Positions 4,645 to 18,396 of a DNA stretch of 64,000 bases are shown piece by piece; the stretch's first letter is position 1; every line of letters begins with the position of its first letter. Both the position numbers and the translations under genes were made by a program. The notes beneath the pieces were generated by a model. It had not been told where the DNA came from. It did not search any database and saw nothing but the letters and a program-made list of their open reading frames with translations. The stretch spans positions 13,495 through 77,494 of IMG/VR virus record IMGVR_UViG_3300048672_000851; one strand, 5' to 3'. The DNA comes from a virus.

Positions 4645-5139
4645 ATGAACAAAAGTCCGTTTATTCAAAAAGAACTAGAAATACTACATACTCGACTTCA
4701 TCAAATTGATGAAAACACTTTTATAGATAGCATGTTGCAGATTATCCGCAATGCTACTGGAAAAGTGTACTCACTTCATGTTGATGTAGAAGAAAAGAAA
4801 GAAACCAAACATCCGGTTACTGCTCAAGACTTCTTAGAAGCCATTGCAAAAGTACAAAGTAATCGTGGTGCAGAGTATGAAGAACAAAGTAAAGAAGAAC
4901 GTAGCTTTGCTAAGGTTGCTGCTTCATACAATGCTATTCGTGACACTAATTTAGCTGGTTCAGATATTGCTTTGATCCAAGCACAATTAAAGTTCGTTCG
5001 CCAATACTCTAATCCTGAACGTATTCACCATGATTCATTGTTAGATGCTCCAAGCTACACTGTCTTATGGTCAAGTGAACTCATGGCTGAAGCAGCGGAG
5101 AAACAACAATGTCTGAAAACAAACCCTTCTTCCGAATAG
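4645..5139 (+). CDS. DUF6378-like (dATP/dGTP diphosphohydrolase-related) protein
   Basis: RGAEY...ERSFAKVA...LKFVR...HHDSLLD..SY pattern; SD GAGGTG before ATG 4645. Confidence 0.55.
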   Translation: MNKSPFIQKELEILHTRLHQIDENTFIDSMLQIIRNATGKVYSLHVDVEEKKETKHPVTAQDFLEAIAKVQSNRGAEYEEQSKEERSFAKVAASYNAIRDTNLAGSDIALIQAQLKFVRQYSNPERIHHDSLLDAPSYTVLWSSELMAEAAEKQQCLKTNPSSE

Positions 5140-5291
5140 AAGAAAAAGATAAGTTTTTTCCTTATCTCAAAATTATGGCTGGTGACAAAGAAATCACGTA
5201 TACCGAACTGGTTCATGCTGCTAATGTCATGCGTGACAAGTTAGCTGGGTTCGGTATTCGAGTTGACTTCACTAAAAAGGATAAACAATGA
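5109..5291 (+). CDS. hypothetical protein
   Basis: ORF with SD GGAG. Confidence 0.65.
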   Translation: MSENKPFFRIEEKDKFFPYLKIMAGDKEITYTELVHAANVMRDKLAGFGIRVDFTKKDKQ

Positions 5292-5629
5292 CTCCTGAAC
5301 AGTTTCAAGAAATGACCGATAAAATGACTGTAGAAGAATTCAAAGAATACTGTGTAACGAATAAAATTTCGTTCATTTTATCTTACGCTTCTGATTCAGA
5401 TATTAATAAAGCTGCTGCTTGTAGCTTCTTTATTAACAGTAAAAACGAAGGAAATCTTCAACACGCTATGTCTAAAGAAGCTGCCAGAATCTCAGCAGCT
5501 AGTATGTGTATTAGTAAAAATTTAAAAGATCAAGAACTAATTGCCTTAGTTCAATTTTTAGGTGAATTGGATTTTCAAAAAGCCTATTTACCTAATGAAG
5601 AAGAAGAAACACCGAAATACTTAAATTAG
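5288..5629 (+). CDS. hypothetical protein
   Basis: ORF with SD AAGGA. Confidence 0.75.
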   Translation: MTPEQFQEMTDKMTVEEFKEYCVTNKISFILSYASDSDINKAAACSFFINSKNEGNLQHAMSKEAARISAASMCISKNLKDQELIALVQFLGELDFQKAYLPNEEEETPKYLN

Positions 5630-5641
5630 GTTACAATATGT

Positions 5642-5670
5642 TTGACATTGTACGCTCCGCGTACTAATAT
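5642..5670 (+). promoter_or_regulatory. sigma70-like promoter (TTGACA-N17-TAATAT) with an N4 vRNAP-type hairpin in its spacer
   Basis: TTGACA 5642-5647; TAATAT 5665-5670; gtacgc-TCC-gcgtac 5650-5664. Confidence 0.65.
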
Positions 5671-5715
5671 TGATTAAAGGCTGTTAATTAGCCCTTATCA
5701 ATAACGAGGTGTAAC

Positions 5716-5832
5716 ATGGATTATGAATTTCTGAATGATGTTGAAGAAACATCTGAAGTAACTCAAGATAATTCCGACCTGTATACCTTCACTATCGAAG
5801 GTGACAAAGTTGAAACTATCTTTGAAGTTTAA
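5716..5832 (+). CDS. 38-aa highly acidic microprotein (MDYEFLNDVEETSEVTQDNSDLYTFTIEGDKVETIFEV), not in ORF track
   Basis: Hand translation; strong SD GAGGTG; own promoter and terminator; 12 D/E versus 1 K. Confidence 0.8.
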   Translation: MDYEFLNDVEETSEVTQDNSDLYTFTIEGDKVETIFEV

Positions 5833-5849
5833 CTACCAAACGCTGGTCT

Positions 5850-5882
5850 AAAAGCCCTGACTAGTTCAGGGCTTTTTATTTT
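5850..5882 (+). terminator. intrinsic terminator
   Basis: aaaagccctga/tcagggctttt stem plus T tract. Confidence 0.85.
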
Positions 5883-5907
5883 GTAGTACCTAAATCAAAG
5901 AACTCCT

Positions 5908-6054
5908 ATGAACGAATTTTTACTTAATAACCCGTGGGTTATCCTAGCTGCTATGGTATTAGCTGGTGCAGCTACTATTATGGCCGCTACTTTAGCAGTC
6001 TTTTGGTTTGGTTATTTAATTACCTATCCATTTCGCACAAAAGACTATCGCTGA
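5908..6054 (+). CDS. 48-aa membrane peptide, not in ORF track
   Basis: Hand translation MNEFLLNNPWVILAAMVLAGAATIMAATLAVFWFGYLITYPFRTKDYR; long hydrophobic span. Confidence 0.55.
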   Translation: MNEFLLNNPWVILAAMVLAGAATIMAATLAVFWFGYLITYPFRTKDYR

Positions 6055-6167
6055 ATACAATCCGTATTTCAATTAAATTACAATCTCAATGACAAACACT
6101 TATTTAGTCTGGTAGCATTACTAGGCCAGACATGGCGTTTTCCCTGTGAGGTTGTGTGTTTACACAA

Positions 6168-6198
6168 AAGGCTATTCAAATTGAATAGCCTTATTTTT
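6168..6198 (+). terminator. intrinsic terminator
   Basis: aaggctattcaa/ttgaatagcctt stem plus T-rich tail. Confidence 0.75.
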
Positions 6199-6211
6199 AT
6201 CGGAAACACTA

Positions 6212-6394
6212 ATGGCTTACTCACTTATAGTTGTCTTATTTATTGGTTCCACTCCTGTTCTCTATGAACAACCCAAATCCACTAAAGAACAATGTCTACT
6301 TGAAGCCAAACAAGTTAAACGTACATTCAGACAACTTAAGTTTGTGTTTCCTAACTTATTTGTTCAATCAGCCTACTGCATGGAGATCAAATGA
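6212..6394 (+). CDS. small hypothetical protein with hydrophobic N-terminus
   Basis: ORF; ATGA overlap with next gene. Confidence 0.65.
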   Translation: MAYSLIVVLFIGSTPVLYEQPKSTKEQCLLEAKQVKRTFRQLKFVFPNLFVQSAYCMEIK

Positions 6395-6807
6395 ATAAAC
6401 TTGAAAAAGGATCTGAGTATGAAATTACAGCTATTATGTTGTTTCCTACTCCAACTCCTAGTTGCAATGTCATTGAAGTAAGTACATCAAAATACACAGT
6501 AACAGAAATGATTAACCCACTTACTTCTGTATACCAACTGGTTTCAGAATGGGGAACTGTTACTGAACGAACTGTATTTGTGTTTGATCCAAAATACTTC
6601 AAAAGTATCTCTAAAAGCCTTTGTGGTTGTTCTTTCTATGTTCCAGAAGAACATAAGCAAGAGTTTATCAAACTAGTTTATGATTTACTGAAATCTAATA
6701 AAATGGATTTAATTAAATCTGTTACTGAACAACTCAATGCAGTTAAAAACAACTACAAAGAGTTCTGTAAGAAAAACCCAGAGGAATTATCTATCTATGA
6801 CCTCTAA
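6391..6807 (+). CDS. hypothetical protein
   Basis: ORF with SD GGAG. Confidence 0.75.
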   Translation: MNKLEKGSEYEITAIMLFPTPTPSCNVIEVSTSKYTVTEMINPLTSVYQLVSEWGTVTERTVFVFDPKYFKSISKSLCGCSFYVPEEHKQEFIKLVYDLLKSNKMDLIKSVTEQLNAVKNNYKEFCKKNPEELSIYDL

Positions 6808-7369
6808 GCCAACAATCATTGTTAAAAAAGCTGAACGTAATACTCAAGCCATGTACAATAAGTGGTGGGAAGAAAAGGCTTTAGTTTTCTTTAGCAATAT
6901 TAATACAGTACCTATGCTTATGCATCTCGGTACTGCATTAACCTATCCTGACTCTAAGGTAAGAGAGCAGTCAATTAATAACGGTGTATTTCCATACCGT
7001 ATTTACATTGGTTCTACTTTTAGCGAAGATGGACAGGATTATTTCAATTACCAAGAGTTAACTACAGTACCTAAACACTTAACTTATAACCAATTCAAAG
7101 ATTTGGTTAAAGATAAACTTCGTGCTTCAGGTGTTGCTTTAGGTAACAAGTTAATCAACCAATTTCACATTGTCATTCCATTAGGTTATGAGTTAACTGA
7201 AGAATACTTAGGTAAGCTTCTTAATGAATACCGAGTATGGACACCACTAGGAAACATGATCCATGAGTCAACTACACTTCCAACTGTTATCCAAAACATT
7301 ATCGCCAGCACAGTTAACCACTATGTTGCAACTTCAACACGAAACCAACTGCGCTCTAATCGACCCTAA
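6797..7369 (+). CDS. hypothetical protein
   Basis: ORF track 6737-7369; likely start ATG 6797 after GAGG. Confidence 0.7.
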   Translation: MTSKPTIIVKKAERNTQAMYNKWWEEKALVFFSNINTVPMLMHLGTALTYPDSKVREQSINNGVFPYRIYIGSTFSEDGQDYFNYQELTTVPKHLTYNQFKDLVKDKLRASGVALGNKLINQFHIVIPLGYELTEEYLGKLLNEYRVWTPLGNMIHESTTLPTVIQNIIASTVNHYVATSTRNQLRSNRP

Positions 7370-8039
7370 CTATTTAATCACTCGTGATGAAAAAGTAGAC
7401 TTCCTGCTTGCAGCAGAACAAGAAGCTTCTGAAGCTATTGATCACTTGGATTGGAAATGGTGGGCTAAAAACCCAGCACCATTAGACTTGTGCCAATTAC
7501 AATTGGAATTCATTGATGTAATTCACTTTGCATTATCTCAATGTATGATTGATGGTCATAACTTTATTTTAAGTCGTGGTTCAACTAACGTTGATGAAGT
7601 CTTCAAAGTATTTGAAGAAAAAGTTGCTACACTAATTACATCTCAATTTGGCAACGAAATGACTCAACGAATTACAGAAGATGTAGGCATTGACTCATTT
7701 GACACAACGATTATTTCAATGCTTCGTCAGATGAAAGTATGTTGTTTAGATTACCAAGCTGCACCTTTGTTGATAAATGCTTTGATTGCCTGTCATATCA
7801 CTGGCATGACACCAGAAGACGTTTACACTACCTATGTCAAAAAGGCTGTGTTAAACCGCTTCCGTCGAGCCAATGGTTACAAAGAAGGCACCTACAACAA
7901 GCTGTGGTCTGGTCTTGAAGATAACGTGTATTTGGACACCGTAGCTTCTACGATTGATCCTAATGACCCCAACTACGTGAATAGCCTGTATTCTCAACTG
8001 ACTATGGAATACGCTGCTCACAACCAACAACAACACTAA
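7263..8039 (+). CDS. dut: dimeric (all-alpha) dUTPase
   Basis: EASEAIDHLDWKWW, LEFIDVIHF and LNRFRRANGYKEGTYNKLWSGLEDN motifs of the dUTPase_2 family. Confidence 0.85.
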   Translation: MSQLHFQLLSKTLSPAQLTTMLQLQHETNCALIDPNYLITRDEKVDFLLAAEQEASEAIDHLDWKWWAKNPAPLDLCQLQLEFIDVIHFALSQCMIDGHNFILSRGSTNVDEVFKVFEEKVATLITSQFGNEMTQRITEDVGIDSFDTTIISMLRQMKVCCLDYQAAPLLINALIACHITGMTPEDVYTTYVKKAVLNRFRRANGYKEGTYNKLWSGLEDNVYLDTVASTIDPNDPNYVNSLYSQLTMEYAAHNQQQH

Positions 8040-8042
8040 TGT

Positions 8043-8071
8043 ATAGGGGGGCTTAGGCTCCCCTATTTTTT
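8043..8071 (+). terminator. intrinsic terminator
   Basis: ataggggggc/gctcccctat stem plus T run. Confidence 0.8.
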
Positions 8072-8081
8072 AGGGAATTTT

Positions 8082-8423
8082 ATGATCCTCTACCAAGACA
8101 ACACCCCTATTCCTGTAACCGTTAAATCTCCCTCTTCATTCGGCTTTGTACGGCTCTATCACTCATTCTCTGGCAAGTATATTGCTACCCTACCTGCTCG
8201 CTTTGTACGTCAAAAGGTAGGCTCTATTACGTACAATGACCACGTTTATCGCTGGATGGATTACAACGGTTCTGTTATTGAAAAAGACGGTACGATTTAC
8301 ATTATCGGACCCCATCATTACGCATTCTATCTCTGCCCTAAAAATACTTGGAAAGAAAGTGCTACTTTCACAAACGAACAATTAAAAATCCAAGCTAGAG
8401 AAGACCGCAAAAATAGAAAGTAA
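8082..8423 (+). CDS. hypothetical protein
   Basis: ORF with SD AGGGA. Confidence 0.7.
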   Translation: MILYQDNTPIPVTVKSPSSFGFVRLYHSFSGKYIATLPARFVRQKVGSITYNDHVYRWMDYNGSVIEKDGTIYIIGPHHYAFYLCPKNTWKESATFTNEQLKIQAREDRKNRK

Positions 8424-8437
8424 GCTCCGCTTACTTT
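8417..8437 (+). promoter_or_regulatory. N4 vRNAP-type hairpin promoter
   Basis: aaagtaagc-TCC-gcttacttt; template strand reads GC-GGA-GC as in N4 early promoters. Confidence 0.65.
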
Positions 8438-8452
8438 TCTGAGATAATAATT

Positions 8453-8632
8453 ATGAAAGATTTACTTTTTGCTTATATTGAGCTTAATTCCGTTTTGGAT
8501 TACACCCACACAGATAAATACGTTGAAGTTAGAGAATTGATTATTCAATTTAATCAGGATATGTCCACTAACTTTGATCCAGACAATACTACCTTGGAAT
8601 ACCTGTCTTATGATCACTCCTTTAGATCTTGA
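8453..8632 (+). CDS. 59-aa acidic hypothetical protein, not in ORF track
   Basis: Hand translation MKDLLFAYIELNSVLDY...SYDHSFRS; first ORF after the hairpin promoter. Confidence 0.55.
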   Translation: MKDLLFAYIELNSVLDYTHTDKYVEVRELIIQFNQDMSTNFDPDNTTLEYLSYDHSFRS

Positions 8633-8966
8633 TCAAGTTACCTTTCTTGCTTCTATTCAATGTCCAGTTGTACTTAAATTAAATCAGTTTCAAGATTTAA
8701 TTGACATCTACAAAGCCAAAAATCTTATCAAGATTGATGTTAAAAAAACTGTAGAAAACAAAGTTACTTCTTATCTTGCTTTAGGTGATATTCAATTCTG
8801 CTTTGAAGAAGAATCACAGTTATTGGGTAAAACAAAAATCCATACCATTAAAGCTACAGAGTATCTAATAGGAAACTATGTTGATGCTATTAAATCTGAA
8901 TTAGCTTATTTGGGTTACAAAGAAGAAAGACTTCAAATCTCAGGGGATGACTTGTTTGATGATTGA
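8610..8966 (+). CDS. hypothetical protein
   Basis: ORF track 8574-8966; first ATG at 8610. Confidence 0.7.
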   Translation: MITPLDLDQVTFLASIQCPVVLKLNQFQDLIDIYKAKNLIKIDVKKTVENKVTSYLALGDIQFCFEEESQLLGKTKIHTIKATEYLIGNYVDAIKSELAYLGYKEERLQISGDDLFDD

Positions 8967-8976
8967 GGCTTAAATT

Positions 8977-9369
8977 ATGTCTATAGGTGAATATAACTAC
9001 ACTCTTGTTAAGATGTTTCCTGAGATTTACTGGATTAATGAAAAATCCAGAATCAAATTTAATTCACAAGAAGAAGTAATAGATTTTCTTGCTGCTTATA
9101 TCTTAGATTGTGGCTATAACAATCAATCCGTTTATATTAAGTTTTATGAAAGATACTTAATATATTTTAGATCTTCACTTGGGTATATTCCTGTGTTTTT
9201 GTTAAAAGAACACTCTAAAATTAAAACAAGTAGTTTCTCTGACTTTATTGCTTTAACACTACCTTCAATTAATACTTTTAGTTGTGAAGAAATAAGACAT
9301 CTTATAGCTGAAAAAATAAAAGAAAAAGATCGAGCGTTATTTGATTACCTTTTAAGTAGAGGAAATTAA
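8977..9369 (+). CDS. FP[DE][IV]YW paralogue family member 1
   Basis: YTLVKMFPEIYW...DFLAAYILD...IAEKIKEKDRALFDYLLSR. Confidence 0.8.
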   Translation: MSIGEYNYTLVKMFPEIYWINEKSRIKFNSQEEVIDFLAAYILDCGYNNQSVYIKFYERYLIYFRSSLGYIPVFLLKEHSKIKTSSFSDFIALTLPSINTFSCEEIRHLIAEKIKEKDRALFDYLLSRGN

Positions 9370-9732
9370 ATGTCACACAGTTACTATCAACTCACTAAAA
9401 TGTTTCCTGATGTTTATTGGAAAGATGGTAAACCAACTATCCCATTTATTTCTGATACAGAATTAGTAGATTTTTTAGTTGAATATGTCCTAGATAACTA
9501 TGAAGAAGATTCCGGTATTTATATTTCCAAAAATGAATTGCTATCAAAATACAAAAACACAGGAAACACAAAATTTAATTGTGTCTGGAATGGGCGTACA
9601 GCAATAAACGGTTTTCTTATAGAACTAGGACTCAATAACCCAGTTTTTCTTAGAAAAAGCGCAGCAAATCGAATAAAAGAGTTAAATCCAGTAGTACATG
9701 AAATACTTTCTATTAGAGAGAAAACAACATAA
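9370..9732 (+). CDS. FP[DE][IV]YW paralogue family member 2
   Basis: YQLTKMFPDVYWKDGKP...DFLVEYVLD...AANRIKELNPVVHEILSIR. Confidence 0.8.
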   Translation: MSHSYYQLTKMFPDVYWKDGKPTIPFISDTELVDFLVEYVLDNYEEDSGIYISKNELLSKYKNTGNTKFNCVWNGRTAINGFLIELGLNNPVFLRKSAANRIKELNPVVHEILSIREKTT

Positions 9733-10166
9733 TGACACCTAAACAGTTTTATCAAGCTTCTTGTTTATTTCCAGATATTTACTGGCCTAATGGTAGACCT
9801 ATAGTTCAATTTGATAAAAAATCAGAAGTAGGTGAGTTTGTTATTCTTTATTTAAAGGATTGCTATTTAGTAGACACATGGGTAGCTATAGAAGAACTAG
9901 CTTCAAAAAGAAGTTTTTCTATTTATCGAATGTCAGGTACTCATCTTTTACGCAAACAATTGCCTGTGTTCCTGCAAAGCGATAACGGTTATTTCAGTAA
10001 CTTAATTACAGCACTGCTTTCAAATAAAAACATAGATCCAGAAGAAGTTAAAGAAAGTATAGCTATTGATTTAAGAAACAACCACCCAGAAATCTTTAAT
10101 GTATTACATGAAAGATATATATCTATAATGTTAAAGAGTGACAATAAACATGGTTATGGAATCTAA
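9732..10166 (+). CDS. FP[DE][IV]YW paralogue family member 3
   Basis: QFYQASCLFPDIYWPNGRP...EFVILYLKD...IAIDLRNNHPEIFNVLHERY. Confidence 0.8.
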   Translation: MTPKQFYQASCLFPDIYWPNGRPIVQFDKKSEVGEFVILYLKDCYLVDTWVAIEELASKRSFSIYRMSGTHLLRKQLPVFLQSDNGYFSNLITALLSNKNIDPEEVKESIAIDLRNNHPEIFNVLHERYISIMLKSDNKHGYGI

Positions 10167-10509
10167 TCAAGAAATCATTGATAACTTGTATTTTGTATAT
10201 AAGTTAACTAATGATCCAAAGTGTATTGATATTCCAATAGATTTCCCTAAACGCTTTACTGAAGATGAAATGTTTAGTTTTATTAAGCTGCTTGGTATAG
10301 CGGGTATGGTAGCGCGTAGAATATCTAAAGCTAAACACTTTACCAATACACTTTATCAATTTAACGATAAGTTTAATTTTCAATATCGAGTACAAAATAG
10401 TAAATCTCTTGTTAGCTTTTTAAGTGATAACAATACCGCTGACTTAGATGACAACTACTTAACTGTAAGCGATTCTCTTGTTGAATACTTCTTTAAGGGT
10501 AAAGTGTAA
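10138..10509 (+). CDS. hypothetical protein inside the paralogue array
   Basis: ORF coupled to both neighbours; start uncertain. Confidence 0.7.
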   Translation: MTINMVMESNQEIIDNLYFVYKLTNDPKCIDIPIDFPKRFTEDEMFSFIKLLGIAGMVARRISKAKHFTNTLYQFNDKFNFQYRVQNSKSLVSFLSDNNTADLDDNYLTVSDSLVEYFFKGKV

Positions 10510-10958
10510 TGTCTCCTGAGCAATTCTATAAAGCTTCATGCTTATTTCCTGAAATCTATTGGCCAAGCGGTGTACCTATAGTTACGTATGAGCATATGGA
10601 TGATGTTCTTGAATTCATGTGTTTATATGTATTGGATTACGGTCAATTAGATCAATCCATTCAAATAAAAACAACTATAGGAAGTGATAAAGTTCATCCT
10701 TATGTTTTTAGAACAAGAAAAGCTTTTAATAAACATGAGTTTTTAGAGCCAGCTTTTATACGGATGAATAAAGCATTAAGTGCATCTTTAATGTACAGTA
10801 CTATGGAATTCAATCAGTTGATTTTAAAATTGTACCAACCCAAATCTATAGAAGATGCAGATTACCTCTCCACCTCTAAGTACAGATTAGCTAAATTAAT
10901 TCAAGAAAGGGACAGAAACTTATATGACACCCTTGTTGATAGATACTTATTTTCCTAA
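10509..10958 (+). CDS. FP[DE][IV]YW paralogue family member 4
   Basis: QFYKASCLFPEIYWPSGVP...EFMCLYVLD...LAKLIQERDRNLYDTLVDRY. Confidence 0.8.
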   Translation: MSPEQFYKASCLFPEIYWPSGVPIVTYEHMDDVLEFMCLYVLDYGQLDQSIQIKTTIGSDKVHPYVFRTRKAFNKHEFLEPAFIRMNKALSASLMYSTMEFNQLILKLYQPKSIEDADYLSTSKYRLAKLIQERDRNLYDTLVDRYLFS

Positions 10959-11367
10959 CTTTGCTTGGTTAAGGAAATTTCATCCAGAAGTGTATGGATT
11001 CAATGTAGTATCTTTTGAGTTATCTCCTGATGATGCTTCCAGAATGATAATTGATTTCATAGTAGAGAAGCTTGAAAATAGTTTAACTGTTGTAATTGCA
11101 CTATCAGAAGACGGAAAAAAAGTTATTTCTGCGGAGGTGTACAACGGTATAGTTAAACTTGGTTCAATAAATTATATCTTTGCAAGATTTATTTACACTG
11201 AATTTCCAAAACCACATAGTTTTTTATTTGATGTAGAAAAGGTTAGGAAATTGGTTTTAATTAGTCTTCGTACTGACCCTAGAACAAAAGATCATCCATA
11301 TATAACTTACCAAGAATACCCTAAACCTTTTTCTACATACGTATTAGGCGACTTCCATGACAAATGA
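10924..11367 (+). CDS. possible divergent member 5 of the paralogue family
   Basis: FAWLRKFHPEVYG...IIDFIVEKLE resembles the family N-terminus. Confidence 0.65.
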   Translation: MTPLLIDTYFPNFAWLRKFHPEVYGFNVVSFELSPDDASRMIIDFIVEKLENSLTVVIALSEDGKKVISAEVYNGIVKLGSINYIFARFIYTEFPKPHSFLFDVEKVRKLVLISLRTDPRTKDHPYITYQEYPKPFSTYVLGDFHDK

Positions 11368-11680
11368 AGAATTAGAACAAGAGATAGAACATATTAAAAT
11401 GCTCCTGTCTCTCAATGTTCCCATTGTGTTTGATCCAGTAAATAAAATTTATGATGCTCTTGCAGCAGCTACTTTATTTGCAGCAATACAAGCTGCAAAA
11501 TTAGACAATAAAAACATTATTGTTGGGTTCAACACAGAAAAAACAGTTAATTATGTTTTTGCTCGTAATTTAACTCTTAATGAATTCACTAACAAATTAA
11601 ACGTAAATTTAAAGGTCACTACAGATGAACTACGCAGAACTACTGTATCGGATTATATTGTCGATGTTGACCTCGGTTGA
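11357..11680 (+). CDS. hypothetical protein
   Basis: ORF overlapping the previous stop. Confidence 0.7.
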   Translation: MTNEELEQEIEHIKMLLSLNVPIVFDPVNKIYDALAAATLFAAIQAAKLDNKNIIVGFNTEKTVNYVFARNLTLNEFTNKLNVNLKVTTDELRRTTVSDYIVDVDLG

Positions 11681-11840
11681 GGTCTTGTTAGTTACAGATA
11701 GTAACTTACTCGCTTATTTTACTTTAGGCTTCTTGGCTTTTTATGCGTCTATTGATTTAATCATAGTGCCGTATGAGGCATACCTTTATTCATTGGAATT
11801 GGATGACTATGAAGATGACGTACAAAGATACAATAAGTGA
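11625..11840 (+). CDS. putative membrane protein
   Basis: Hydrophobic LLAYFTLGFLAFYASIDLIIVPY segment and acidic tail; start uncertain. Confidence 0.45.
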   Translation: MNYAELLYRIILSMLTSVEVLLVTDSNLLAYFTLGFLAFYASIDLIIVPYEAYLYSLELDDYEDDVQRYNK

Positions 11841-12027
11841 AATTCAAGTAGCAAAAAATAGAACAGTTGTTTATCAACTACTTTCTAAAGCAGGTATTGA
11901 AGCTGGTGGTATTGGTAATTCTATTTCTCGTTTAATTAGCAAAGCAGTAAGAGATAAAGATTATCAATTAGGTGTTCTATTAAGAACAGCTAAAGCCAGA
12001 TTAGACCAATTGGAGAACATCCAATGA
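11773..12027 (+). CDS. hypothetical protein
   Basis: ORF; true start probably further downstream. Confidence 0.6.
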   Translation: MRHTFIHWNWMTMKMTYKDTISEIQVAKNRTVVYQLLSKAGIEAGGIGNSISRLISKAVRDKDYQLGVLLRTAKARLDQLENIQ

Positions 12028-12212
12028 CAAAATCAATGCTATCAAATATGAGTGTGGATGAATTAGCTAAACAAATTTTAGGTAATAAAGATCCCACATT
12101 CGATTACAAAACTGCTGCTGAAATCCTTGCTGCTAAAACCCAAATCCTTTCATTCCATTACAAACAGCTAGAACATGACGTACAAGTTTTAGCTTCTAAT
12201 ACCAATCGTTAA
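12024..12212 (+). CDS. hypothetical protein
   Basis: SD GGAG; ATGA overlap. Confidence 0.7.
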   Translation: MTKSMLSNMSVDELAKQILGNKDPTFDYKTAAEILAAKTQILSFHYKQLEHDVQVLASNTNR

Positions 12213-12218
12213 ATAAAC

Positions 12219-12239
12219 AGGGTCGGCTCCGCCGACTCT
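12219..12239 (+). promoter_or_regulatory. N4 vRNAP-type hairpin promoter
   Basis: (agg)gtcggc-TCC-gccgac(tct) in the intergenic gap before the AAA ATPase. Confidence 0.6.
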
Positions 12240-12264
12240 TATAAACATCCCAAAGGAAAACACC

Positions 12265-13455
12265 ATGTCTAGTATTAACTTTGATTTAAATTATGATCAG
12301 TGCAAAGAACAAGTAAAAATGGTTCTTAAAGCTGGTTTGGTTCCAATGATTGAATCAGCGCCGGGAATCGGTAAATCTTCAATGATGCGTGAAATCGCTG
12401 AAGAACTGGATTTATTCCTGATTGACGAACGTATCTCTACTCGTGAACCGTCAGATATGACTGGTTACGTGTTACCTACAGACAGCGTGGATTTAAACGG
12501 TAATCCATTCAAACAAATCCAAACTGCCCCTCTGGACATTTGGCCACTGGAACACACTCCATTACCAATCAACCCAAAAACAGGCCAACCATATAAAGGC
12601 TGGTTGATCTTCTTGGATGAATTACGTTCAGCTACTCCTGCTGCACAAGCTGCCTGTTACCGTGTCCTGTTAGACCGTGAAATCGGCAACAAGAAGCTGC
12701 ATAAGCGTGTTCTGTTGGCTGCTGCATCTAACCGTATGGAAGACAACGCTGTTGTTCATGACGCTGGTACAGCAATGCAATCACGTTTGACTTGGTTGGG
12801 TTTACGTTCAGATTTAGACATCTGGATCAACAACGTAGCTATTGGCCGTAGTCTGGATGCTCGTGTAACTGCTTTCGTACAGTGGAAAGGCATTCAAGCA
12901 CTGAACAACTTCAACCCAGATCACCAAGAAAAAACATTCACTTGTGAACGTACTTGGGAAATGGCCAGCAAGATTTTGAAGAAAAACTTCCCACAAGTCG
13001 GCCCGATTCCTAACGAGTATGCTGCTGTATTCGTAGGTACAATCGGTCAAAGCATGGCTTTGGAATTCATCGCATTCACTCAAATTTACTCTAATTTAGT
13101 GACATTTGATGATATTGTACAAAACCCATTAGGTGTAGCAGTTGACGTTAACCGTCCTGACATTATGTTTGCTACCGTGTCTAACATTCAAAGTAATTTG
13201 AATGCAAGCAACATGGGTACTGCGCTTGATCCAGTAATGAAATTCATTAACCGCGTTGGTATTGAATTCCAAGCACTTGTTGTACAACACATTTTACGTA
13301 CTGACCCTATGGTTGCACGTACAAACAATGAAGTTGTTACTTGGATTAGCCAGAAACAAACTTTCTTGAACAATAAACGTGCTCAGGTACAGGCAATTCC
13401 AATGCCACCACAACCATCAACACAAGATGATGACGATGCCCCTGATGCACCGTGA
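12265..13455 (+). CDS. MoxR-like AAA+ ATPase (N4 gp24-like)
   Basis: Walker A SAPGIGKS, Walker B LIFLDE, sensor AASN, TCERTWE. Confidence 0.9.
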   Translation: MSSINFDLNYDQCKEQVKMVLKAGLVPMIESAPGIGKSSMMREIAEELDLFLIDERISTREPSDMTGYVLPTDSVDLNGNPFKQIQTAPLDIWPLEHTPLPINPKTGQPYKGWLIFLDELRSATPAAQAACYRVLLDREIGNKKLHKRVLLAAASNRMEDNAVVHDAGTAMQSRLTWLGLRSDLDIWINNVAIGRSLDARVTAFVQWKGIQALNNFNPDHQEKTFTCERTWEMASKILKKNFPQVGPIPNEYAAVFVGTIGQSMALEFIAFTQIYSNLVTFDDIVQNPLGVAVDVNRPDIMFATVSNIQSNLNASNMGTALDPVMKFINRVGIEFQALVVQHILRTDPMVARTNNEVVTWISQKQTFLNNKRAQVQAIPMPPQPSTQDDDDAPDAP

Positions 13456-16566: not shown

Positions 16567-18396
16567 ATGTACCACTTAACCTTTCAGGAAACCTCCGAAA
16601 ACATACCTTACAAGCTTGCAGTGGTACTCCCCTACCCTGCCATCCAGCAGAAAAAGAATGTCGAAGAAGCCTACTGTAAGCCGTTTGGAATAGACCCTAA
16701 GGAAGTGATTTTCTTCGGGTTTATTACTCCCGCCAACGGTAAACAGATGCCAGCAAAAGAGGCCAAAGATGCTGCGGCAAATGTTATGGCAGCCTGTGAA
16801 CACCTTGGCATTAAGACCATCTATATCGCTGAAACATCCATCTTTAAAGCTGCTTCAGGGGTTAAGAAGGCTACCCCTTACCTTGGTATTCCCACGCCCT
16901 GTAAGGACGATACAAAGCCCTTTACACTGGTCTATGGCATTAACCATCAACGGCTATTCTATGATCCAAGTCTTAAAATGGAATTGGAACGAGGCTTTAA
17001 CATTGCCTACTCAATTGCCGATGGCCGTAACTACGAAGTCATTCCACCGGATTTAAGAAAAAAAGTAGTTATTGTTGATGATTACTTTGAGATCCAATCA
17101 AAATTAATTGAATTACTTTCCGAACCCAAGTTATCTCTTGATGCTGAAACATTCAGTTTGAAGTTTTATGAAGCTGGCTTAGGTACGTTTACTTTGTCCC
17201 CTTCAGAAGAATTAGCTTATGCTTTTCCATGCGATGTAATGGAAGAAGATGGACAATCAATTCGTGAAGTTAATATTCCAGTCAGACGTTTATTAAAGAC
17301 TTTCCTAGATAATTATCGTGGAACAATGGTTTACCATAATGGTAGCTACGATATGAAAGTTCTTATCTATGTTCTGTACATGGAAGAAAAACTCCACAAC
17401 TTAAAAGGTATGTTAACTGGCATAGAAGCCTTAACTACCAAAATGAAGTTTGAAGACACTAAGTTAATTACCTATGTGGCTACAAACAGTACATCAGGCA
17501 ATGACTTATCACTTAAACATCAAGCAAGAGAATTTGCAGGTAATTACGGTTTAGGTGATGACATCAAAGACATTCTTAAAATTAAACTAGAAGACCTGTT
17601 AATCTATAACGGTATTGACGGTTTAAGTACTAATTATGTCTACAACAAACATTGGCCAACAGTTTTATCAGATAATCAAGAATACGTTTATCGTGAAATT
17701 CTCCTTAAATCAGTTAAGTTATTCTTACAAGCAGAACTAACTGGTATTCCTATTTCACTTGAAAAAGTGAAAGAAGTAGAAGAAATTCTTAAACAAGCCA
17801 GAAAGGAACAAACAGATAAGCTTTATGCTAATCCAGCAGTACTTGAATATGTTCCTAAGCTCCAACAAAAGAAAGTTGATCAGCACAATGCTAAGTTAAA
17901 AACTAAGCGTGTTGGTTTAGACTTGTACTCTCATATTACTTATAATCCTGGTTCTGACCAACAAACAGTTGAGTTATTAATTGAACAAGGTCAAATGGTG
18001 TATGAAGATACAACTGATTCTGGAGCACCATCAGTCTCTAAAGATGCATTAATTAAAATTAAAGCACTAAACCAAGATAAACCTATTTATCTAGAAATAG
18101 TTGATGTACTTATTGAATTAAGTCAAATTGACATTCTCTTAGATAACTTCATTGAAGCATTCAAGAATAACTCTGCTTATCGTGAAGGAATGGGTTATTT
18201 TTTATTTGGTTCATTCAACATCGGTGGTACTGTATCTGGTCGATTAAGTTCATCTAAACCAAACTTACAGAATTTACCATCCAAAGGTAACAAGTATGCT
18301 TATTTAATTAAGTCATGCTTCGTTGCGCCTAAAGCAAGATACATAGTTGACAAGGATAAGTGGCGGAGTATACTGGCTCCTTACAAAGACATTTGA
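16567..18396 (+). CDS. family A DNA polymerase, N-terminal part (3'-5' exonuclease, thumb, start of palm)
   Basis: ExoI LDAET, ExoII HNGSYD, ExoIII YNGID, GTVSGRLSSSKPNLQN; stops before motif A. Confidence 0.92.
   Translation: MYHLTFQETSENIPYKLAVVLPYPAIQQKKNVEEAYCKPFGIDPKEVIFFGFITPANGKQMPAKEAKDAAANVMAACEHLGIKTIYIAETSIFKAASGVKKATPYLGIPTPCKDDTKPFTLVYGINHQRLFYDPSLKMELERGFNIAYSIADGRNYEVIPPDLRKKVVIVDDYFEIQSKLIELLSEPKLSLDAETFSLKFYEAGLGTFTLSPSEELAYAFPCDVMEEDGQSIREVNIPVRRLLKTFLDNYRGTMVYHNGSYDMKVLIYVLYMEEKLHNLKGMLTGIEALTTKMKFEDTKLITYVATNSTSGNDLSLKHQAREFAGNYGLGDDIKDILKIKLEDLLIYNGIDGLSTNYVYNKHWPTVLSDNQEYVYREILLKSVKLFLQAELTGIPISLEKVKEVEEILKQARKEQTDKLYANPAVLEYVPKLQQKKVDQHNAKLKTKRVGLDLYSHITYNPGSDQQTVELLIEQGQMVYEDTTDSGAPSVSKDALIKIKALNQDKPIYLEIVDVLIELSQIDILLDNFIEAFKNNSAYREGMGYFLFGSFNIGGTVSGRLSSSKPNLQNLPSKGNKYAYLIKSCFVAPKARYIVDKDKWRSILAPYKDI

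What the first reader, a model, noticed from the sequence alone, without database searches (positions are those of the whole stretch)
8977..11367. Tandem array of diversified paralogues (FP[DE][IV]YW family) with conserved ends and variable middles
Seen: four clear copies (8977, 9370, 9732, 10509) and one divergent copy (10924), 120-149 aa each. They share an N-terminal Y..x-x-[ML]FP[DE][IV]YW..G.P.[IV].[FY]....[ED][VL].[DE]F...Y[IVL].D and a C-terminal [IAL]A..[IL].E....[LVI][FY]..L..R, while the centres do not align by eye. The genes are tightly packed or overlapping, AT-rich with AGA/ATA codons, and lie downstream of a vRNAP-type hairpin. Inference: a scaffold-plus-variable-domain gene accordion of early effectors, as expected for counter-defence against diversifying host targets. 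I do not recognise the family, so this is a strong candidate for an undescribed system.
Basis: partly seen in the sequence, partly recalled or inferred. Interest (0 to 1): 0.75.

Follow-up and report, generated by a model that had tools for sequence, protein, structure and literature searches.

The report
Four-copy orphan gene family, N4-like phage
An uncultured N4-like phage carries four old, diverged tandem copies of a small protein that has no relatives or known fold in the searched databases; they are probably pre-replicative binding proteins, but their function is untested and such arrays are common in these phages.

Summary
The four clear copies (8977, 9370, 9732, 10509) are true paralogues. 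All six pairs are significant, and they are the only paralogue family in the 77.5-kb genome. The fifth copy (10924) is not shown: its alignment is in register but weak (22 of 2000 shuffles score as well; hhalign probability 6%). An unrelated orphan gene (10156-10509) sits inside the array.

The ends are conserved and the centre varies, in both the conservation profile and the AlphaFold confidence.

The family is undescribed. Pfam, PHROGs, NCBIfam, PADLOC, PDB and BFVD gave nothing credible. A profile search of 1.84 billion proteins returned only the window's own copies. Four one-to-one orthologues (72-90%) lie on two short Logan contigs.

The "accordion" reading is not supported. Copies are 22-33% identical, synonymous sites are saturated, and the one known relative keeps each copy it can be checked for.

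The array lies between the RNAPII genes and the gp24-like ATPase, behind a GC-GGA-GC hairpin like N4 promoter P2. Early versus middle timing cannot be told from sequence.

Counter-defence is speculation. My best guess is non-enzymatic binding proteins aimed at host targets.

Earlier AI notes from this scan report other paralogue arrays in N4-like phages, on other DNA and in other families.

The parts
8419..8435 (+). Hairpin AGTAAGC-TCC-GCTTACT. The template strand reads GC-GGA-GC. It is a candidate hairpin promoter (vRNAP or RNAPII type) at the head of the operon, and its stem covers the stop codon of the upstream gene.
   Evidence: The template strand folds as ssDNA at -6.9 kcal/mol, z -4.45. 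Same-core hairpins lie at 5649 and 12221 and in the record at base 8683. All three GCTCCGC heptamers in the window are these hairpin cores.
8453..8632 (+). 59-aa ORF. Possibly a relic of a family copy. Weak evidence.
   Evidence: The HMM aligns VLDYTHTDKYVEV to profile positions 41-64, and 37 of 2000 shuffles score as well. An 18/21-nt in-frame match to copy A's DFLAAYI segment exists (D4). Not significant after multiple testing.
8574..8966 (+). 130-aa acidic ORF (TTG start, or ATG at 8610). Not demonstrably a family member.
   Evidence: 194 of 2000 shuffles reach the HMM score. No Pfam or PHROGs hit.
8977..9369 (+). Copy A, 130 aa.
   Evidence: BLASTP to B 4e-9, to D 4e-7, to C 1e-6. GAGG Shine-Dalgarno 9 nt upstream.
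9370..9732 (+). Copy B, 120 aa. Its start abuts A's stop.
   Evidence: Orthologue P0006 at 90% identity.
9732..10166 (+). Copy C, 144 aa. TAATG overlap with B.
   Evidence: C-D E 1.3e-15. Orthologue P0003 at 88%. AF2 model pLDDT 75, pTM 0.75.
10156..10509 (+). Unrelated orphan ORF X inside the array. 117 aa from the ATG at 10156, or 123 aa from the GTG at 10138.
   Evidence: No similarity to the family: 550 of 2000 shuffles score as well. The only homologue in the 5.8-billion-protein set is itself.
10509..10958 (+). Copy D, 149 aa. TAATG overlap with X.
   Evidence: Orthologue P0005 at 85%, with the changes concentrated in the middle third (34/50 identical, against 49/50 and 46/51).
10924..11367 (+). 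ORF E, 147 aa, overlapping D by 35 nt. A possible remote member through its N-terminal half only.
   Evidence: Orthologue P0009 is 72% identical and keeps 19 of the first 22 residues, which supports the long start. E shares the array's ATA/AGA codon signature. The AF2 model is uninformative at pLDDT 41.
11357..12212 (+). Four further small overlapping ORFs (107, 71, 84 and 62 aa) completing the putative transcription unit.
   Evidence: No family hits.
12221..12237 (+). Next hairpin of the same class (GGTCGGC-TCC-GCCGACT), 28 nt before the gp24-like ATPase gene. It marks the end of the unit.

Best explanation
Shown. A-D are four ancient tandem duplicates of one small (14-17 kDa), soluble, near-neutral protein. 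The family is confined to this sparsely sampled lineage of N4-like (Schitoviridae) phages. Each copy is kept intact, and B, C and D have a one-to-one orthologue in the one known relative. All copies are translationally coupled in one tightly packed, roughly 3.8-kb block of about twelve small genes. That block lies between two N4-P2-type hairpins, after the RNAPII genes and before the replication genes.

Inferred. The block is transcribed before replication from the hairpin at 8419, by vRNAP or by RNAPII. The conserved N-terminal 50 residues (aromatic FP[DE][IV]YW core) and the C-terminal helices fold together into a helical scaffold. The indel-rich centre (a beta-hairpin plus a disordered loop in the model) is presented as the specificity surface. 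With no conserved His, Cys, Ser or Lys, the proteins are probably binders rather than enzymes. Each paralogue is probably specialised for a different partner, most likely host proteins (takeover or anti-defence) and less likely phage proteins. The duplications are old and subfunctionalised, not a dynamic accordion.
For: Paralogy.

Coding and kept intact: Shine-Dalgarno sites and TAATG or abutting junctions. Orthologues at 85-90%, full length. N-terminal pN of 0.32-0.49 lies below a saturated pS.

N4-like context: 3417-aa vRNAP ORF. gp24-like ATPase, with N4 gp24 at 37%. RNAPII subunits match phrog_2166 and phrog_2051 at 1e-60 and 5e-107. DUF2201/VWA, helicase and PolA genes lie downstream.

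Hairpin: GC-GGA-GC on the template strand. This meets the N4 requirements of a loop with 5'G and 3'A, a G:C closing pair and a central purine (PMC4496689).

Scaffold plus variable centre: conservation profile. AF2 pLDDT is 83-92 for residues 1-40 and 86-91 for residues 91-130, against 46-57 for residues 61-90, with pTM 0.75.

Non-enzymatic: the invariant residues are M, Y, F, P, Y, W, F, Y, D, I, F, A, R. pI is 5.9-6.7.

Accessory: no homologues among 1.84 billion representatives. The region upstream of gp24 is a run of small hypothetical genes in Vibrio phage PJN101 too.
Against: No experimental or homology-based evidence for any function.

The AF2 model rests on seven sequences that are really four families, and the ESM Atlas models of the same proteins are poor (pTM 0.19-0.28). 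The scaffold picture is therefore provisional.

Only one of four orthologue pairs concentrates change in the centre.

The hairpin's predicted +1 (11 nt from the loop centre) is T, not G. A G lies at +14, as in LUZ7. The 8419 hairpin is followed by TTTT, so it could also terminate the upstream gene's transcript.

The odd codon usage (ATA 46% of Ile) argues for low expression or foreign origin rather than a highly expressed early effector.
Confidence: 0.45

Rival explanations
1. Dynamic gene accordion of counter-defence effectors. Copy number expands and contracts quickly under an arms race with host defence systems, and the variable centres are under diversifying selection.
For: Tandem arrangement, variable centre and pre-replicative position. 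Orthologue pair D/P0005 has a hypervariable patch: 8 of 9 residues changed plus an indel. An alternate frame of D's own DNA does not reproduce it.
Against: Paralogues are 22-33% identical with saturated synonymous sites. No copies are near-identical. B, C, D and E each have a one-to-one orthologue in the relative. Pairs B and C diverge evenly along their length. No match to Pfam, PHROGs, NCBIfam or PADLOC, the libraries at hand. None of these is a dedicated anti-defence library.
Confidence: 0.15
2. Phage-directed accessory factors. The paralogues act on the phage's own machinery, for example as cofactors or regulators of vRNAP, RNAPII or the replication proteins, or they hetero-oligomerise through the conserved ends.
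For: The array lies between the RNAPII genes and the replication module. N4-like phages need small cofactors for middle transcription, such as N4 gp1 and gp2 and LUZ7 Drc (PMC4496689, PMC9163698). Conserved ends could be an oligomerisation interface.
Against: The family is absent from all other Schitoviridae searched, whereas machinery cofactors would be expected to travel with the conserved polymerases. The proteins are not basic, with pI about 6, so nucleic-acid binding is not favoured. The codon usage is atypical of the core genes.
Confidence: 0.15
3. Horizontally acquired, largely dispensable cargo ('moron'-like island). The block 8977-11367 came from an AT-richer genome and persists under weak selection without an important role.
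For: Compositional and codon island. GC is 30.5% against 37%. ATA is 38-50% of Ile and AGA 25-70% of Arg across A-D, E and X, against 0-8% and 28-32% in core genes. The immediate neighbours differ.
Against: All ORFs are intact, although the AT-rich sequence is stop-rich. The relative keeps them at full length at 72-90% identity. Start sites are coupled and carry Shine-Dalgarno motifs. No donor is known.
Confidence: 0.15
4. The whole block from 8453 to 11367 is made of family members, and u_8453, u_8574, X and E are copies diverged beyond detection.
For: Similar sizes of 117-149 aa for all but the 59-aa u_8453. In-register weak matches for E and u_8453 at p about 0.01-0.02 each. E has FPNFAW at the family's position, and no other such motif occurs in the six-frame translation of the genome. 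E's predicted N-terminal secondary-structure order (H-H-H-E-E-H) parallels C's. E and X share the codon signature.
Against: None is significant after correction for nine tests. X and u_8574 score at p 0.28 and 0.10. hhalign probability is 6%. The E model has pLDDT 41, and its C-terminal half is predicted as strands, not helices.
Confidence: 0.25

Closest known systems
Tandem paralogue arrays of small uncharacterised proteins in other N4-like phages
   Same: Several diverged, tightly packed copies of a small orphan protein in the accessory part of a Schitoviridae genome, with function unknown.
   Different: No sequence relation. PHROGs, which according to the earlier notes holds the gp70/gp71 clusters, gives no hit at E <= 0.1. 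The position also differs: this array lies between RNAPII and gp24, not at the right end.
Coliphage N4 early promoter P2 (vRNAP hairpin promoter) and LUZ7 early and middle hairpin promoters
   Same: A 6-9-bp stem and a 3-nt loop reading GGA on the template strand, with a G:C closing pair. It lies in an intergenic position, oriented with the genes (PMC4496689, PMC9163698).
   Different: It lies about 18 kb into the rightward-transcribed region, downstream of the RNAPII genes. The base 11 nt downstream of the loop centre is not G. Which polymerase uses it is unknown.
Poxvirus K3L gene accordion (from my own knowledge: Elde et al. 2012)
   Same: Tandem copies of a small viral gene, proposed to act against the host.
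   Different: Accordion copies are recent, near-identical and variable in number. Here the copies are ancient (22-33% identity) and conserved one-to-one in the relative.
Small non-enzymatic phage anti-defence or host-takeover proteins of pre-replicative operons (for example Ocr, Tad1/Tad2, Acr clusters, N4 gp8)
   Same: Size, solubility, lack of catalytic residues, pre-replicative location and lineage-restricted distribution.
   Different: No sequence or fold similarity to any of them in Pfam, BFVD or PDB. The proteins are not acidic DNA mimics (pI about 6). No functional data.

Membership tests
FP[DE][IV]YW paralogue family (defined here) | Significant pairwise or profile similarity over the N-terminal ~55 residues and the C-terminal helices | tested here: met
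   A, B, C and D score 143-198 bits against the family HMM, and all six BLASTP pairs are significant.
FP[DE][IV]YW paralogue family (defined here), ORF E 10924-11367 | Significant similarity to the family profile | tested here: inconclusive
   4.2 bits, with 22 of 2000 shuffles scoring as well. hhalign P 0.006, probability 6%. The alignment is in register and a degenerate motif is present.
FP[DE][IV]YW paralogue family (defined here), ORF X 10156-10509 | Significant similarity to the family profile | tested here: not met
   2.0 bits, with 550 of 2000 shuffles scoring as well.
Gene accordion (recent tandem amplification) | Near-identical copies, with copy number varying between close relatives | tested here: not met
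   22-33% aa identity and pS 0.55-0.86 in the N-terminal and middle blocks. One-to-one orthologues of B, C, D and E in the relative. The relative is known only from two short contigs, so its full copy number could not be counted.
N4-type vRNAP hairpin promoter | 5-7-bp stem, 3-nt loop with 5'G, central purine and 3'A on the template strand, and a G:C closing pair | tested here: met
   The template strand reads GTAAGC-GGA-GCTTAC, and the ssDNA fold has z -4.45. The requirements are as stated in PMC4496689.
N4-type vRNAP hairpin promoter | Template +1C (RNA starts with G) 11 nt downstream of the loop centre, and use by vRNAP early in infection | tested here: inconclusive
   Position 8438 is T. 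A G lies at 8441 (+14), which fits the LUZ7 spacing of 13-14. Polymerase usage cannot be tested in silico.
Csx28 (type VI-B CRISPR accessory, HEPN-like membrane protein) | Score above the curated cut-off, with a consistent alignment across copies | tested here: not met
   Only copy B hits: PADLOC E 0.0012 at 16.8 bits, and NCBIfam 15.9 bits against a cut-off of 50. The family-profile hit to PDB 8gi1 has E 6.9 and lies in a different register. Csx28 is not among the top structural matches.
Any Pfam, PHROGs or NCBIfam family, or any solved or predicted viral fold | A hit above threshold | tested here: not met
   The best VIA-align Z is 3.7 and the best Foldseek E is 0.3-0.5.

The most novel reading that the evidence does not exclude
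The family is a new fold of modular phage inhibitor. A conserved N- and C-terminal helical scaffold presents a hypervariable central insert, and the four or five paralogues each neutralise a different host defence or takeover target. This would be an ancient, fixed multi-specificity anti-defence cassette in a freshwater N4-like lineage. The localised rewriting seen in orthologue pair D/P0005 would be the trace of ongoing adaptation.
Probability: 0.2. Interest if true: 0.6.

Novelty: new member of a known kind. Interest (0 to 1): 0.35.

Why it matters
If the proteins prove to be host-directed binders, they would add a new fold and a four-member specificity series to the catalogue of phage takeover and anti-defence proteins. 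They come from a part of Schitoviridae, uncultured and apparently freshwater, with almost no functional data.

As it stands the value is modest. This is a clean, well-delimited orphan family with a usable AF2 model and defined boundaries. It is one more example that N4-like phages build their accessory regions by old tandem duplication. It also cautions that 'tandem paralogues' does not mean 'accordion'.

Tried and rejected
- Pfam, PHROGs, NCBIfam and PADLOC on all copies and neighbours gave nothing above threshold.
- Csx28 and tm_HEPN hits appear for copy B only. They are sub-threshold, in inconsistent registers, and not supported by structure. Rejected.
- ESM Atlas gave no usable hit for C. 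For D it gave eukaryotic cNMP-binding clusters at 0.92 with only 133 shared features. That is a beta-barrel family, incompatible with the helical model. Rejected as chance.
- The weak WH_Egal (E 0.19) and phrog_21652 (E 0.029) hits were ignored.
- Foldseek against PDB and BFVD, and VIA-align against 48,161 chains, found no match. The best Z was 3.7, to helical repeats and HMG boxes.
- tblastn of D against 50,697 phage records gave no match at E <= 10. blastn of the locus gave none.
- Scans of IMG/VR and JGI metagenome contigs with the family motif confirmed no relatives. A scan for close relatives through the gp24-like protein found none.
- dN/dS between paralogues is uninformative because synonymous sites are saturated.
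- A compensated frameshift as the cause of the D/P0005 variable patch is not supported: neither alternate frame of D's own DNA resembles the orthologue's patch.
- AF2 of E with its one orthologue gave pLDDT 41, too poor to compare folds.
- Rfam found no RNA family in 5000-12600.
Full report
**Context.** The window is bases 13495-77494 of a 77,494-bp IMG/VR virus record rated 100% complete. It is an N4-like podovirus (Schitoviridae).
- It has a 3417-aa ORF on the minus strand, the size of the virion RNA polymerase.
- It has the two RNAPII subunits (phrog_2166 at 1e-60 and phrog_2051 at 5e-107) at record bases 6726-8646.
- It has a gp24-like ATPase at window 12265-13455. Its best phage relatives are only 42% identical (Alteromonas and Vibrio N4-like phages), and N4 gp24 itself is 37% identical.
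- Downstream lie DUF2201/VWA, SF1 helicase and family A polymerase genes.
- The record is permuted. A large terminase lies on the minus strand at its start, so the rightward early and middle region runs from about record base 3.5 kb.

The finding therefore lies about 19 kb into that region, after RNAPII and before gp24. That is the position of the middle genes gp17-gp23 in N4.

**The observation.** ORFs A (8977-9369), B (9370-9732), C (9732-10166) and D (10509-10958) are on the same strand. A abuts B, and B-C and X-D share a TAATG overlap. Each has a Shine-Dalgarno-like motif.
- All six pairwise BLASTP comparisons are significant, at 1e-15 to 2e-5 for a database size of 1e6.
- In an all-against-all of every ORF of 50 aa or more in the genome, these are the only convincing paralogues.
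- The alignment has 14 invariant columns, dominated by aromatic residues: Y7, F13, P14, Y17, W18, F36, Y40.
- Conservation is high in the first 50 columns, negative in the indel-rich centre, and moderate in the roughly 20 C-terminal columns 131-150.

Two corrections are needed.
- First, an unrelated ORF X (10138/10156-10509) sits between C and D. It scores at chance against the family (550 of 2000 shuffles), and its only homologue in 5.8 billion clusters is itself.
- Second, the 'divergent copy' E (10924-11367) is not demonstrable. The family HMM aligns in register (profile 9-62 to E 16-67) but at 4.2 bits. Twenty-two of 2000 shuffles of E do as well. hhalign of the family against E plus its orthologue gives P 0.006 and probability 6%.

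Several points favour E as a remote member.
- It begins MTP like C.
- It carries FPNFAW at residues 10-15, where the family has FP[DE][IV]YW at 13-18. A relaxed motif search finds nothing else in the six-frame translation, though that pattern was relaxed after seeing E.
- The predicted secondary-structure order of its N-terminal half matches C's.
- It shares the array's peculiar codon usage.

The E model is too poor to weigh (pLDDT 41). I put E's membership at roughly 50-60%.

A 59-aa ORF just behind the hairpin (8453-8632) has a similar borderline match, plus an 18/21-nt in-frame match to copy A. It may be a relic copy. After correction for nine neighbours tested, neither is significant.

**Distribution.**
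- A profile of the family run by HMMER against 1.84 billion representatives returned only the window's own four proteins.
- The word-indexed search of 5.8 billion clusters added three proteins from two short Logan contigs: P0006 (90% to B), P0003 (88% to C) and P0005 (85% to D). A search with E added P0009 (72%).
Adjacency is therefore probably kept.
- No relatives turned up in GenBank phages, IMG/VR or JGI metagenome contigs.

The family is confined to one poorly sampled lineage.

**Age and dynamics.** Paralogues are 22-33% identical. Synonymous differences are saturated (pS 0.55-0.86 in the N-terminal and middle blocks). Non-synonymous differences are lower in the N-terminal block (0.32-0.49) than in the centre (0.47-0.67). 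No copies are near-identical at the DNA level; the best is 62-70% over 100 nt of the N-terminal block.

Each of the copies B to E has one orthologue in the relative. This is an old, stable, probably subfunctionalised array, not a breathing accordion.

Among orthologue pairs, only D concentrates its changes in the middle third (34/50 identical, against 49/50 and 46/51). That includes a patch with 8 of 9 residues replaced plus an indel, which no alternate frame of D's own DNA reproduces. B and C diverge evenly along their length.

**Structure and function.** AlphaFold2 of C with the seven-sequence alignment gives pLDDT 75 and pTM 0.75. The elements are H3-12, H14-17, H30-46, a beta-hairpin at 51-66, a low-confidence stretch at 68-85, then H87-95, H103-117 and H119-139. 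Confidence is high in the conserved ends and low in the centre.

No fold match was found. The best Foldseek E-values were 0.5 against PDB and 0.3 against BFVD. The best VIA-align Z against 48,161 chains was 3.7. No library family matches. Weak Csx28 hits for copy B alone are inconsistent, so I rejected them.

The proteins are near-neutral (pI 5.9-6.7). From the sequences I see no transmembrane or signal segment, though I ran no dedicated predictor. They have no conserved His, Cys, Ser or Lys. The most economical reading is a non-enzymatic binding protein whose scaffold is conserved and whose central insert differs between paralogues. The target is unknown.

**Expression context.** A perfect hairpin, AGTAAGC-TCC-GCTTACT, lies at 8419-8435. 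On the template strand it reads GC-GGA-GC. That meets the features N4 vRNAP needs: loop 5'G and 3'A, a central purine and a G:C closing pair (PMC4496689). As far as I recall, it is the same core as N4 promoter P2.

Hairpins with the same core lie at window 5649 and 12221 and at record base 8683. All are on the plus strand at gene boundaries. The array belongs to a block of about twelve small ORFs between the hairpins at 8419 and 12221. No convincing terminator lies inside it, and a strong terminator at 8043-8066 lies upstream.

Timing cannot be told from sequence. In LUZ7, nine early start sites are mostly hairpin-type, and middle (RNAPII) promoters are also GC-rich hairpins (PMC9163698). The array's synteny is 'middle'. 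'Pre-replicative' is safe. 'Early' is not shown.

**Codon island.** Copies A-D, E and X use ATA for 38-50% of Ile. A-D and E use AGA for 50-70% of Arg; X is lower at 1 of 4. In core genes the figures are 0-8% and 28-32%. The flanking small genes are intermediate or core-like. GC is 30.5% against 37%. The phage carries a tRNA-Arg(UCU), which reads AGA, about 0.7 kb before the window. The island suggests a shared history for 8977-11367, either foreign origin or weak codon selection.

**Verdict.** This is a real and undescribed four-member, possibly five-member, orphan family of apparently new fold, in the accessory pre-replicative region of a divergent N4-like phage. The accordion and counter-defence story is unsupported in its dynamic part and untested in its functional part. 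Earlier AI notes of this scan report other tandem paralogue arrays in N4-like phages, from different families. That makes this a new member of a familiar kind rather than a new kind of system.

The relatives' DNA, full copy number and dN/dS could therefore not be examined.

Noticed in passing
L005:12702-12776 (about 0.7 kb before the window start): The phage encodes a tRNA-Arg with anticodon UCU, which reads AGA. AGA is the Arg codon enriched to 50-70% in copies A-D and E, against about 30% in core genes. No tRNA for ATA was found.
   Followed up: partly
window 8977-11367: Codon and composition island. ATA is 38-50% of Ile codons here, against 0-8% in core genes. GC is 30.5% against 37%. The orphan X and ORF E share the signature, but the flanking genes do not. 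This suggests a common, possibly foreign, history for the block.
   Followed up: partly
window 5649-5665, 8419-8435, 12221-12237; record base 8683-8699 (L005): Four hairpins with an identical GC-TCC-GC core (template strand GC-GGA-GC, as in N4 P2) and different stems. All lie on the plus strand at gene boundaries. One lies directly after the RNAPII genes and one 28 nt before the gp24-like ATPase gene. Whether vRNAP or RNAPII uses them is open.
   Followed up: partly
window 8043-8066: A strong intrinsic-terminator-like hairpin (10-bp GC-rich stem plus a T run) lies right after the dimeric-dUTPase-like gene (7263-8039, PF08761 at 2.7e-17). The basic 113-aa ORF at 8082-8423 is left between a terminator and the next hairpin, with no obvious promoter.
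   Followed up: no
window 16567-18396: The family A DNA polymerase ORF matches only the first ~158 of 381 positions of the Pfam polymerase domain before it ends. The polymerase therefore seems split. Earlier scan notes describe a homing endonuclease between the halves.
   Followed up: no
window 10509-10958 versus P0005: The otherwise 93-98% identical orthologue differs in a short central patch: RMN-KALSASL against LLNTRGSNKQY. No alternate frame of D's own DNA reproduces the patch. This looks like localised rewriting of the variable centre.
   Followed up: partly
L005:3-3386 (minus strand): The record starts with late genes on the minus strand, including the large terminase at 586-2190. The deposited sequence is therefore permuted relative to the N4 convention, and the rightward early region begins near record base 3.5 kb. 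Compared with N4, about 12 kb of extra small genes and RNAs precede gp24.
   Followed up: no
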